Positions 44,201 to 47,200 of a DNA stretch of 64,000 nt are shown piece by piece. This DNA comes from Leucoraja ocellata. Its lineage: Eukaryota. The stretch is from contig JAWMAR010000107.1 in the NCBI GenBank assembly GCA_036785375.1, forward strand, positions 4,216,001 through 4,280,000, written 5' to 3'. A program made the position numbers. Positions within the stretch are counted from its first letter, which is position 1. The number at the start of each line of letters is the position of its first letter.

Positions 44201-47200
44201 TGGCATCTCTAAATGCGTCATATCCAATTGCATTTGAGTTTGTTTAGTTGAGTTTGAGTTTAGTTTATTGTCATGTGTACCAAGGTACAGTGAAAAGCTT
44301 TTGCTGTGTGCTAACCAGTCAGCAGAAAGCCAATATGTGATTACACTTGAGCCATCCACAGTGTACAAATACATGATTAAGAGAATAACTTGAATAAGTT
44401 TAGTGTAAGGTAAAGCCACTAAAATCCGATCAAAGATAGTCCGAAGGTCTCCAATGAGGTAAATAGTAGTTCAGTTCTGCTCTCTAGTTGTGGTTGGCTG
44501 GTTCAGTTGCCTGATAACAGCTGGGAAGAAACTACCTGAATCTGGAGGTAGGCTGGAGCACATACGGACGCACGCAGTGTCACAAATAAGATGAGAGTTT
44601 TTGTAATATACTAGACTAAGTGGGACCCAATGGGTCCCAGTCACACAGTGGGTCTGGTCCCTGTTGAATAGCAGTGTGGCCAACTATTTGAGCAAATTCA
44701 TTCCGGACTTCATTGAAATATCAGCCCCATTGCGCCAGCTTACACACAAAGACTCTGCTTGGATTTGACACGAGCAACAACAGACAACATTCGACACTCT
44801 TAAATGGCAGATGTCTGGTACTCCTACTCTGGCTTACTTTGACCCTAATCGTCCGATTACACTTACTTGTGATGCCTCACAACACGGGCTGGGCGCTGCA
44901 TGCCTTCAGAATGATAGCAATGGCAATAAGCCTGTTGCCTATGCCTCGCGCACCATGACTGAAACAGAACGACGATATGCCCGAATTGAAAAAGAACTGT
45001 TACCGGTTGTTTTTGCCTGCAAGAAATTCAACGATTTCATCTTTGGCCACACTGTCACAATTGAAACTGACCACCAACCTCTGACCATCAACCTCTGATC
45101 AACCTCCTATCCACACATCTCCAGCGCGCCTACAGCGGACGTTACTGCAACTTCAAAAATATGACATTGTTCTGATCCACAAACGCGGTAAGGATATGCA
45201 CCTGGCCGACACTCTTTCGCATGCGCCCCGGAAGACCTGCGCGGATCAGCCCTCGCCGGATGATGACTTTATTGTGATGACTGTGTCCTTTATCCTTTCG
45301 TCCTGTATGGAGGACCTGGTTGCCCACACTGCTACTGACAGTACCTTAAGGTCTCTAACCTCCGTCATTAAGCGCGGCTGGCCAGACAAACACTATAGCG
45401 TTCCGCTGGCAGTCCGGCCCTTCTTTGCTGTCCGAGATGAGCTAGTGCTGCAAGACGGCATTATTTTAAAAGGACACAAGGCCATGGTTCCTGCTTCGCT
45501 GCACCACCGGTATTTTAACGCTGATCAGGCAGGGCACCCAGGTGCTGAGGCCATTGTTTTACGGGCAAGAAGCATGTTTGTCACCAACAAAAGCAACCAC
45601 TTCTTTCACATCCTGTACTAGCGCTCCCATGGTCTACAATCGCAGCTGACGTATTTGATTGGCATGGCAAACAATACCTGGTGCTCGTGGATTCTTATTC
45701 AGGATGGTTTGACATTGATTTTCTCAGCAACCCCACTTCCAGCGAAGTGATTTCAAAGTTATTTCATCACATTTCTGTCCACGGATCTCCACGCAGACTC
45801 CACCTTCAGCTTTTGGCCTCATGCAGCAGATCCCGGTCCAACTCCGGCTTCTGGTTCAACTCAGCGGCTTCTGGCTGGTCGTGCTGGGCGCCGCAGAAGC
45901 AGCAGGTGAGCCACTGACTCCCCGCAAGCTGCTCAACACACTGCGCCCCTTCAGCTTTTTACTCACATCGCCGTGTTATTGACAGCGGGTTCCGGAAGGG
46001 GCGGATTTTACGATTTTTAAACCTTCATAACTTTTGTACTATTTCACCGATCGGAACAAAACCTATTTGACTTGCAACAGAGGAGAATGGTGGCGAAAAA
46101 TCGTAGCGCTATAGGGGAAACATTTTTGCGCAAAGTTAATTATAACGCAGACCAAGATGATGGCCAAGATGAGAGTTTTAGTAATAGTGTAGAAGATAGA
46201 TACTAGACCAAATGGGACCCGTTGGGTCCCTGTCACATGAGAGTTCTGGACCCCAACGCAACCCGTTCCCCCAACGCAATATTCCAACACTCCCCCATAG
46301 CCCCCACGGGAGGCCTGGTCCCTCAACGCAACCCGTTCCCCAAGGCAATATTCCACCAATAGCCCCCAACTGCGCAATGGCTGCTCATTTCGCCTTACTC
46401 ACCCTCCCTCATTTTGAAACTTTAAAAAAAATGCATTTACACTTGCTAGGGCTAGGGTTTGTAAATTTTTAAATGTCAATAACTTGTGAAATAGAACATC
46501 AATCTCAACGAACCTTGACACGAACCACCACAGGACAATTGAGAGTAAAGTGGTTCAAATAATTTAGCGCTATTGTGCAGTCCATCTATTCCCCACTCCC
46601 TATCACCCCCACTCCTCTCCCTCTTTTCCCACACTCTCCCTCCTCACCTCCCCATTCCCCCCTCTCCCTCCCTACTCCCTCAATCCCCCCACTTCCCCTC
46701 TTCACCTCCCCAGGATCTCGCCTGTCCTCCGGATCTGCAGAACTTGCTCGTTCACAGAGAGGAACACAGAAGAGGGAGGTCAGAGAGCCAAATGCCAGCG
46801 CGCGGGGGGGGGGTTGCAGTGCGGTGTTGATGTAACTTGGCTCGCAGCGCCCGCAGCCGTTGATAACTGCTAGCTGACTACAGCCCTTTAAACCCGCTAA
46901 GGCAAGACGTGTTCGATCAGGCGCGAGCGTTAACAGCAAAGAAGCACCGGCTTCTGATTCTCTGGAAACCCACAGCTGTCATTTGCAGTCAGTGTGGAAT
47001 GAGCGCGCAGGGGATGGGAGGGGCTCGCAGGCAGGCGTGGCTTCGCGAGCCGCGCCAGCTGTGAGGAGAAAGTTCAGCGGAACTTATGAGGAGAAGTTCA
47101 GCGTGTGAGGAGTCGCAGCCCCGAGATCTTTAGAACAAAGATGCTACAGCGGAACGCAGCTGTAGAATCTTTGTTCTGCAGAACTTTCTCGATCTTTCTG

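What the first reader, a model, noticed from the sequence alone, without database searches (positions are those of the whole stretch)
44611..46200. Candidate Helitron capture of a Gypsy RNase H-integrase fragment
Seen: ~1.1 kb of Gypsy pol begins abruptly mid-RT about 65 bp inside the Helitron 3' end and stops mid-integrase, with no LTR, PBS or TSD, and is closed by a Helitron 5' segment (~45975-46200). Established: Helitrons capture and disperse foreign fragments (well known in maize and bats). Inference: a DNA rolling-circle element carrying retrotransposon cargo into a tumour-suppressor intron, in sense orientation to RB1.
Basis: partly seen in the sequence, partly recalled or inferred. Interest (0 to 1): 0.65.

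Follow-up and report, generated by a model that had tools for sequence, protein, structure and literature searches.

The report
Gypsy pol fragment in Helitron-like unit
A decayed 1.1-kb piece of a Gypsy retrotransposon lies between Helitron-type end signals just upstream of RB1 exon 2 in a non-human vertebrate; it looks like ordinary transposon cargo, but nothing here shows that the two ever moved as one unit.

Summary
On the + strand, 44673-45800 is a Ty3/Gypsy pol fragment running from the RT-RNase H linker through RNase H and the integrase zinc finger to mid integrase core. It is decayed and has no LTR. No other pol piece matched the five reference pols anywhere else in the window. It sits in a 1,590-bp stretch (44611-46200) whose minus strand ends in a canonical Helitron 3' signal: a 7-bp hairpin, 7 nt, CTAG, then T. 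That 30-nt signal occurs 4 times in the window against 0 expected. Three copies lie head-to-tail, 1.3-1.6 kb apart.

Support for the 5' side is thin: an A|TC and a 21-nt motif seen twice.

The RB1 context is partly shown. An exon at 51366-51486 (+) matches the retinoblastoma protein N-domain, and MED4 and ITM2B lie upstream. The first exon is only a candidate (40598-40662).

Capture is the most economical reading. Co-mobilisation could not be tested because no eukaryotic genome collection was available, and protein-level junction searches found nothing. If true it is an ordinary kind of event, so interest is low to moderate.

The parts
44611..46200 (-). Helitron-like unit 1, which is the finding. 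It is a non-autonomous element read on the minus strand, with 5' TC at 46200/46199, 3' CTAG at 44614-44611, and flanking bases A (46201) and T (44610).
44611..44661 (-). 3' terminal block of unit 1. It holds the palindrome GGGACCC-nnn-GGGTCCC at 44622-44638, then 7 nt, then CTAG at 44611-44614.
   Evidence: 30-nt motif: 4 matches against 0 expected. Hairpin folded. Local alignment to units 2 and 3 gives z 11.7 and 14.5 over 31-47 nt.
44673..45800 (+). Ty3/Gypsy pol fragment, a broken gene given as one part. It runs from the RT-RNase H linker through RNase H and the integrase H2C2 region to the first half of the integrase core, and is antisense to unit 1. Breaks: 2 changes of frame, 1 in-frame stop, 1 internal loss of about 23 codons, and truncation at both ends.
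   Evidence: Pfam; tblastn bounds and counts; 262 homologues, best 71% identity, named Gypsy / K02A2.6-like / Ty3-G pols; best solved structures are Ty3 7q5b_A and 4ol8_A, E 2.4e-6 and 2.9e-6; right bound confirmed by 27 of 28 hits ending at query residue 38-53.
45801..46165 (.). Unassigned interior of unit 1. It has no pol likeness and no likeness to unit 2 or to the rest of the window. It holds an exon-like ATG-to-GT-donor piece at 45821-45907 (+).
46166..46200 (-). Putative 5' terminal block of unit 1. It starts with TC and holds the 21-nt motif TATTACNAAAACTCTCATCTT at 46166-46186.
   Evidence: 2 matches against 0.02 expected; z 8.5 against the copy at 44588-44608.
44588..44608 (-). Second copy of the 21-nt 5'-side motif, lying just outside the 3' end of unit 1. 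It may be the stub of a further unit and is followed on the left by a LINE-like repeat.
46203..47517 (-). Helitron-like unit 2. Its 3' CTAG is at 46203-46206. The candidate 5' TC at 47517/47516 is inferred from position only. The interior is unrelated to unit 1 and includes a CpG-rich stretch at 46701-47300.
47528..47648 (-). 3' part of Helitron-like unit 3, with CTAG at 47528-47531. It is 82% identical to unit 2 over 153 aligned columns and is cut off at about 47648 by other repeats.
21570..21599 (+). Solitary copy of the same 3' end signal, with the element on the + strand and CTAG at 21594-21597 followed by T. Its flank and interior are unrelated to the others, which places the shared terminus at CTAG(TA).
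51366..51486 (+). Context: exon of the RB1 orthologue (AG...GTAAGT, 121 nt), 5,166 nt downstream of the finding.
   Evidence: Splice/ORF scan. Top PDB hit is 2qdj_A 'Retinoblastoma-associated protein', E 1.8e-4, with 4elj_A at E 4e-4.
40598..40662 (+). Context: candidate first coding exon of RB1 (ATG...GT donor) inside the CpG island 40201-40900. Unproven.
   Evidence: The phase fits the exon at 51366, but the scan assumed that phase.

Best explanation
Window 44611-46200 is one non-autonomous, canonical-type (HLE1) Helitron-like unit on the minus strand. It is one of three that lie head-to-tail in a TA-rich spot upstream of RB1 exon 2 (probably intron 1) in a non-human vertebrate.

Seventy-one per cent of the unit is an antisense, decayed 1.13-kb fragment of a Ty3/Gypsy pol. 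The fragment has no LTR, gag, protease or RT core, so it cannot have arrived by its own integration as it stands.

The most likely history is DNA-level acquisition: the fragment became cargo between Helitron end signals, through by-pass of a 3' terminator into neighbouring DNA or through template switching or filler repair.

Shown: the pol fragment and its bounds; the four 3' end signals; the A...T flanks; the unrelated interiors of neighbouring units; the RB1 exon downstream.

Inferred: that 46200 is a true 5' end, that the fragment was captured rather than inserted and trimmed in place, and that the chimera ever transposed.
For: - The 30-nt 3' motif (hairpin, 7 nt, CTAG, T) has 4 matches against 0 expected. 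The solitary copy at 21570-21599 loses likeness exactly after CTAG-TA.
- These are the features that passages of PMC11417382 give as defining for HLE1.
- Units 1 and 2 are flanked by A and T.
- A 21-nt motif lies 15-35 nt inside the putative 5' end and recurs next to another 3' end: 2 matches against 0.02 expected.
- The interiors of units 1 and 2 are unrelated (z 1.0 and 0.2), while units 2 and 3 share 116 nt at their 3' ends (z 49). Conserved ends with different cargo is the usual Helitron pattern.
- The pol fragment starts within 11 nt of where the 3'-end likeness stops.
- Five reference pols found 0 other pieces in the window. No LTR-like repeats were found.
- CpG o/e is 0.75 for the pol, 0.90 for the rest of the unit 1 interior and 0.69 for unit 2, against 0.42 and 0.35 for the flanking DNA. 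The pol therefore shares a compositional history with the units rather than with the surrounding intron.
- Helitron capture of gene fragments and head-to-tail arrays are documented in vertebrates (passages of PMC12001565).
Against: - The 5' end rests on a TC dinucleotide and a 21-nt motif seen only twice.
- PMC11417382 (passages) warns that TC/CTRR signals are common and give many false positives.
- Unit 2's 5' end has no sequence support.
- No Rep/helicase family was hit in any of the 678 ORFs and ORF pieces scanned.
- No second copy of the chimera was found. The near-length protein search with the right-junction ORF gave 0 hits, 0 of 28 representative hits span the junction, and the one near-length relative of the 141-aa piece (70% identity) does not share its aberrant tail.
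- Why three or four units sit head-to-tail is unexplained. The locus could be a pre-capture arrangement rather than a transposed product.
- In Pleurotus, a Gypsy element inside a Helitron was read by its authors as an insertion, and they cite work finding that Helitron-TE chimeras are rare (passages of PMC4289320).
Confidence: 0.5

Rival explanations
1. Nested insertion followed by decay. A full-length Gypsy element integrated into a Helitron that was already in place, and two later deletions removed both LTRs, gag, protease, the RT core and the end of the integrase. A pol core was left between intact Helitron ends.
For: - The fragment is decayed: 2 frame changes, 1 stop and 1 internal loss of about 23 codons. 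Deletions therefore did occur in it.
- The Pleurotus Helitron/Gypsy chimera was read by its authors as an insertion (passages of PMC4289320).
- 365 nt of unassigned interior (45801-46165) could be trimmed Helitron sequence.
Against: - It needs at least two large deletions that each removed an LTR and its target duplication yet spared the 51-nt 3' block and the 35-nt 5' block.
- No LTR trace or other pol piece is present in the window.
- The sequence after the pol's right end does not resume the subterminal sequence that units 2 and 3 carry after their 3' block.
Confidence: 0.2
2. Chance neighbourhood. An older Gypsy remnant lay in this DNA, and separate Helitron insertions or fragments landed on either side. 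In that case 44611-46200 is not one element, or it is the donor arrangement from which a read-through could start.
For: - Three same-strand 3' signals within 3 kb, separated by TA and (TA)5 spacers, show that this TA-rich spot was hit repeatedly or rearranged.
- Passages of PMC4289320 say Helitrons often land in AT-rich regions already occupied by other Helitrons.
- The 5' end of unit 1 is weakly supported.
Against: - The 3' block on the left would have to be a 51-nt stub whose body was lost exactly where the pol begins.
- Both ends have the same orientation and sit at an element-like spacing of 1.59 kb.
- CpG o/e of the pol (0.75) matches the units, not the flanking intron at 0.35-0.42.
Confidence: 0.15
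3. Not a Helitron. The recurring block (the 21-nt motif, an AT-rich spacer and the 30-nt palindrome-bearing motif) is part of another kind of repeat or a locally duplicated segment, and its likeness to a Helitron terminus is coincidental.
For: - In 2 of 3 adjacent sites the 5'-side motif and the 3' motif occur together as one block.
- No Rep/helicase is present in the window.
- The hairpins are not more stable than shuffled sequence: z -0.02 to -1.38 over 47-60 nt.
- TC/CTRR-based calls have many false positives (PMC11417382 passages).
Against: - The fourth copy has unrelated sequence on both sides and loses likeness right after CTAG-TA.
- No terminal inverted repeats pair with the block.
- The interiors between blocks are unrelated, so this is not a segmental or satellite duplication.
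- Rfam gives 0 matches in the window.
Confidence: 0.15

Closest known systems
Non-autonomous canonical Helitrons (HLE1) carrying captured fragments, e.g. Heli1Xen1 of Xenopus laevis (PMC12001565, passages read). Maize and bat cases are recalled, not read.
   Same: - The 3' hairpin plus CTAG, a TC start and A/T flanks.
- Conserved ends with unrelated interiors.
- Foreign sequence between the ends.
- Head-to-tail arrangement; the paper reports 43 Helitron-derived tandem arrays.
   Different: - There the cargo is host exons, mostly gene 5' ends, and capture was shown by several copies at different loci.
- Here the cargo is a retrotransposon pol fragment and only one copy is known.
- The neighbouring units here have different interiors, unlike a monomer array.
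HELPO1.2 Helitron with an LTR/Gypsy element inside, Pleurotus ostreatus (PMC4289320, passages read)
   Same: Gypsy sequence lies inside Helitron boundaries, in the opposite orientation to the Helitron.
   Different: - There a whole LTR element interrupts the RepHel ORF of an autonomous Helitron, and the authors read it as an insertion.
- Here a pol-only fragment without LTRs lies 51-62 nt from the 3' end of a short non-autonomous unit, which a plain insertion does not explain.
Ty3/Gypsy pol polyproteins of fishes and other animals, named by their sources as 'Gypsy retrotransposon integrase-like protein 1', 'K02A2.6-like' and 'Transposon Ty3-G Gag-Pol'
   Same: - RNase H of PF17917/PF17919 type.
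- Colinear order linker - RNase H - H2C2 - integrase core.
- 60-71% identity in the RNase H piece.
- Best solved relatives are Ty3.
   Different: - Only about 343 of about 1,311 reference residues are represented.
- It is broken: 2 frame changes, 1 stop and 1 internal loss.
- No LTR, gag, protease or RT core is present.

Membership tests
Canonical Helitron (HLE1) | [quoted passage not shown] | tested here: met
   7-bp stem, 3-nt loop, 7 nt, CTAG at 4 sites. The 30-nt motif has 4 matches against 0 expected.
Canonical Helitron (HLE1) | 5' end starting with TC | tested here: inconclusive
   A TC preceded by A is present at 46200/46199 and 47517/47516, but a dinucleotide is weak evidence. Supporting likeness is a 21-nt motif with 2 matches, and unit 2 has none.
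Canonical Helitron (HLE1) | Insertion between A and T without target duplication | tested here: inconclusive
   Flanking bases are A...T for units 1 and 2, and T follows CTAG at 4 of 4 sites. No empty site was available for comparison.
Canonical Helitron (HLE1) | Many dispersed copies with the same ends and different flanks | not testable with these tools
   Only the window could be searched. One of the 4 ends (21570-21599) has unrelated flanks. No eukaryotic genome collection was available.
Canonical Helitron (HLE1) | Autonomous partner coding Rep/helicase with matching ends | not testable with these tools
   No Helitron_like_N or PIF1-type Pfam hit in any of the 678 ORFs and ORF pieces scanned. 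The unit is therefore non-autonomous, and any partner would lie elsewhere.
Helitron2 / Helentron (HLE2) | Short terminal inverted repeats and insertion between T and T | tested here: not met
   No inverted repeat pairs the unit ends, and the flanks are A and T.
Helitron capture (transduplication) | Foreign fragment lying between the two terminal structures of one element | tested here: inconclusive
   The pol lies at 44673-45800, between the 3' block 44611-44661 and the putative 5' block 46166-46200. The 5' block is weakly supported.
Helitron capture (transduplication) | The same chimera at two or more loci with different flanks | not testable with these tools
   A DNA search was not possible. 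Protein-level proxies gave 0 hits and 0 of 28 hits spanning the junction, which is weak negative evidence only.
Ty3/Gypsy LTR retrotransposon | pol with the order RT - RNase H - integrase and Gypsy-type RNase H | tested here: met
   PF17917 E 9.5e-28. Colinear match to residues 713-1055 of P0007, whose domains were mapped. Top PDB hits are Ty3.
Ty3/Gypsy LTR retrotransposon | LTRs, gag, protease and RT core, i.e. a whole element | tested here: not met
   No flanking direct repeats and 0 further pol pieces in the window with 5 reference pols. It is a fragment of a member, not an element.
Location in an RB1 intron | RB1 exon downstream on the same strand as the pol | tested here: met
   51366-51486 (+) hits 2qdj_A and 4elj_A, 'Retinoblastoma-associated protein', at E 1.8e-4 and 4e-4.
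Location in an RB1 intron | RB1 exon upstream of the site | tested here: inconclusive
   The candidate is ATG 40598 to the donor at 40663, in CpG island 40201-40900. No database hit was possible for 21 residues. Upstream, MED4 (-) and ITM2B (+) fit the vertebrate gene order, which is recalled.

The most novel reading that the evidence does not exclude
A family of short non-autonomous Helitrons in a cartilaginous or other basal fish builds head-to-tail rows of units that share only their ends and each carry different cargo. One unit transduced a Gypsy pol fragment and spread it. That would be a documented case of a rolling-circle DNA transposon dispersing retroelement coding sequence in a vertebrate, sited in the first intron of RB1 and CpG-rich against its surroundings.
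Probability: 0.25. Interest if true: 0.45.

Novelty: new member of a known kind. Interest (0 to 1): 0.3.

Why it matters
If the chimera were shown to be multi-copy, it would add a vertebrate example of a Helitron carrying another transposon's coding sequence. Authors cited in PMC4289320 describe this class of chimera as rare. It would also give a concrete locus for studying how rows of Helitron units with different cargo arise.

As it stands it is a single, decayed, non-coding remnant in non-coding DNA near the start of RB1. Nothing suggests an effect on the gene, and Helitron capture as such is well known.

Tried and rejected
1. By eye I thought 45975-46165 resembled 46440-46580 inside unit 2. 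Local alignment against 200-300 shuffles gave z 1.1 and 1.0, so I rejected this.
2. For 2 of 5 references the tblastn bounds ran on to 46043 and 46058. This was not reproduced when 45790-46210 was searched alone or in the representative search, so I treat it as over-extension.
3. Many related pols gave a weak minus-strand match at 45839-45916 (E 0.01-0.3 against a 421-nt subject). It is the same spurious spot seen by homologous queries, so it is not significant.
4. Pfam found no RB family in 455 of 455 ORFs of >=50 aa outside the pol stretch, nor in 212 of 212 + strand ORFs of 30-49 aa from 30 kb onward. The 204 minus-strand short ORFs from 30 kb on and the 359 short ORFs before 30 kb were not scanned. 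The ORF 51316-51579 that holds the RB1 exon was among those scanned and scored nothing, so these Pfam negatives are weak.
5. I considered the CpG-rich 54401-55400 as an RB1 first exon. It lies downstream of the RB1 exon and is a nested inverted repeat, so I rejected it.
6. Rfam at gathering thresholds gave 0 matches in the window.
7. Two minus-strand 206-aa ORFs lie exactly 3,999 nt apart (43326-43943 and 47325-47942). They are unrelated, so this is coincidence.
8. The protein-level junction searches gave nothing.

Not done:
- The genome-contig scan, because that collection holds only bacteria and archaea.
- Viral contigs and metagenome contigs, which were closed.
- Supplementary tables of the papers, which were closed. 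Those of PMC12001565 may list captured TE fragments.
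Full report
**What is at the coordinates.** The + strand of 44673-45800 codes for a remnant of a Ty3/Gypsy pol.
- The open piece 44811-45095 matches Pfam RT_RNaseH PF17917 (E 9.5e-28) and PF17919 (E 1.6e-27). The other 10 pieces sent in that call gave no family at E <= 0.01.
- The RNase H piece finds 262 proteins at E <= 1e-5 among 332 candidates. The best is 71% identical. The named ones are 'Gypsy retrotransposon integrase-like protein 1', 'K02A2.6-like' and 'Transposon Ty3-G Gag-Pol' of fishes and invertebrates, with one from a skate at 61%.
- Its best solved relatives are Ty3 Gag-Pol 7q5b_A and Ty3 RT/RNase H 4ol8_A, at E 2.4e-6 and 2.9e-6.
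- tblastn with five named pols places the fragment at 44673/44682 to about 45800, on the + strand in 5 of 5, for example residues 713-1055 of the 1311-aa P0007.
- In P0007 the Pfam domains are RVT_1 525-680, RNase H 744-870, integrase H2C2 928-982 and rve 1014-1087. The fragment therefore starts in the linker after the RT domain, not mid-RT, and ends in the middle of the integrase core.
- The right bound is confirmed independently. Of 28 representatives matching the ORF 45681-45914, 27 match only its first 38-53 residues.

**State of the pol gene.** It is broken by 2 changes of frame, 1 in-frame stop and 1 internal loss of about 23 codons, and it is truncated at both ends. Only counts are given.
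- The five reference pols matched nothing else in the 64-kb window: 0 pieces at E <= 1e-3.
- No LTR-like direct repeat flanks the fragment.

**The Helitron-type signals.** A 30-nt motif occurs 4 times in the window against 0.00 expected in 100 shuffles: 44609-44638, 46201-46230 and 47526-47555 on one strand, and 21570-21599 on the other.
- Read on the opposite strand, the motif is a 7-bp-stem palindrome with a 3-nt loop, 7 nt, CTAG, then T. This is the 3' end that passages of PMC11417382 give as defining for canonical Helitrons, together with a TC start and insertion between A and T.
- The fourth, solitary copy has unrelated sequence on both sides and loses likeness just after CTAG-TA. That places a real terminus there.
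- The hairpins alone are not more stable than shuffled sequence: z -0.02 to -1.38. The evidence is therefore the recurrence and the position, not the fold energy.

**Arrangement of the units.** On the minus strand the three neighbouring signals define head-to-tail units.
- Unit 3 is cut off at about 47648.
- Unit 2 spans 46203-47517.
- Unit 1 spans 44611-46200, which is exactly the finding's coordinates.
- Spacers of (TA)5 and TA separate the units, and each of units 1 and 2 has an A before a TC and a T after CTAG.
- Units 2 and 3 share 116 nt from the 3' end (z 49). Unit 1 shares only 31-47 nt with them (z 11.7-14.5). The interiors of units 1 and 2 are unrelated (z 1.0 and 0.2).
- A 21-nt motif lies 15-35 nt inside the putative 5' end of unit 1 and again just outside unit 1's 3' end: 2 matches against 0.02 expected. 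Unit 2's 5' end has no such support.
45801-46165 matches nothing in the window and no pol.
- No Rep/helicase family was hit in any ORF scanned, so the units are non-autonomous.

**Gene context.**
- A MED4 exon lies on the minus strand at 10760-10930: Pfam Med4 E 1e-5, and 28 of 31 identical to 7emf_D.
- An ITM2B exon lies on the + strand at 26100-26255: BRICHOS E 4e-7, and 32 of 39 identical to 8rnu_A.
- A splice/ORF scan gave 121 candidate exons. Only one of them, 51366-51486 (+, donor GTAAGT), was sent to the PDB search. It has 'Retinoblastoma-associated protein' 2qdj_A as its top hit, at E 1.8e-4.
- RB1 is thus on the + strand, with an exon 5,166 nt downstream of the finding. The pol is sense to RB1 and the Helitron-like unit is antisense.
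- Whether the site is intronic depends on the first exon. The best candidate is ATG 40598 to a GT donor at 40663, inside the CpG island 40201-40900. It has ETS/ATF/E2F-like words that I recall from the RB1 promoter literature but did not test. A weaker alternative lies inside unit 2.
- I do not take the window for human. It holds Gypsy and Helitron-type repeats, and its MED4 and ITM2B exons differ from the solved chains, which I take to be human. The N run 14392-14591 was left alone.

**How it most likely came about.**
- A pol-only fragment without LTRs cannot have integrated by itself. It begins within 11 nt of the point where unit 1 stops resembling the other 3' ends.
- After the pol, the sequence does not resume the subterminal sequence that units 2 and 3 carry.
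- The pol shares the CpG-rich composition of the units (o/e 0.69-0.90), not that of the flanking DNA (0.35-0.42).
- The simplest account is DNA-level acquisition between Helitron end signals. Such capture, and head-to-tail arrays, are described for vertebrate Helitrons in passages of PMC12001565.
- Nested insertion followed by two large deletions remains possible. So does a chance neighbourhood that might even be a donor arrangement, or a repeat that is not a Helitron.
- A Gypsy element inside a Pleurotus Helitron was read by its authors as an insertion. They cite work finding such chimeras rare (passages of PMC4289320).

**What could not be checked.**
The only open contig collection holds bacteria and archaea, and the other two were closed.
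- Protein-level proxies were negative but weak:
  - the right-junction ORF gave 0 near-length hits;
  - 0 of 28 representative hits span the junction;
  - the 141-aa piece has 1 near-length relative, at 70% identity, which does not share its aberrant tail.
- Papers were seen as search listings and as passages. Supplements were closed.

**Verdict.** Interest is 0.3.

Noticed in passing
window 9521-9730 and 10760-10930 (-); 26100-26255 (+); 51366-51486 (+): Exons of MED4 (minus strand), ITM2B (plus) and RB1 (plus) lie in that order. This is the gene order I recall from other vertebrates. Identities to the solved chains are 28/31 and 32/39, which points to a non-human vertebrate.
   Followed up: partly
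window 40201-40900: A CpG island (GC 0.56, o/e 0.98) holds a short ATG-started frame at 40598-40662 that ends at a GT donor. It is the likely RB1 promoter and first exon, but this is unproven.
   Followed up: partly
window 44611-47517 against the flanks 41000-44500 and 47700-51300: Helitron-like units 1 and 2, including the pol fragment, keep CpG o/e of 0.69-0.90, while the surrounding DNA is at 0.35-0.42. They are either recent arrivals or a hypomethylated patch near the RB1 start.
   Followed up: partly
window 45821-45907 (+) and about 47236-47284 (+): Each of units 1 and 2 holds a short ATG-started frame that ends at a GGTGAGC donor-like site, a similar distance from the unit's putative 5' end. 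These may be captured gene 5' ends. The likeness between the two is not significant.
   Followed up: partly
window 7333-9246 (+): A 638-codon open frame has a reverse-transcriptase domain (RVT_1 E 5.3e-34). It is a LINE-like element with a long uninterrupted frame. Other RVT_1 pieces lie at 1372-2008 (+), 5655-6397 (-), 15350-15772 (-), 18435-19542 (+) and 48414-49404 (+).
   Followed up: no
window 43530-43655 and at least 17 other places (e.g. 22717-22823, 33453-33549, 20321-20430): A high-copy SINE-like repeat of about 100-125 nt occurs at 75-90% identity between copies. One copy abuts the solitary Helitron-type end at 21600.
   Followed up: no
window 54549-55140: A GC-rich nested inverted repeat lies downstream of the RB1 exon. 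The inner arms are 87 nt and 98% complementary (54660-54746 / 54898-54984); the outer arms are 79 nt and 85% complementary. It could be a foldback-type element or a rearrangement.
   Followed up: partly
window 14392-14591: A run of 200 N (assembly gap or masked stretch), left untouched.
   Followed up: no
window 44588-44608, 46201-46202, 47518-47527: The Helitron-like units are separated only by TA and (TA)5, and a copy of the 5'-side motif sits just outside unit 1. No explanation so far accounts for why three or four units lie head-to-tail with different interiors.
   Followed up: partly
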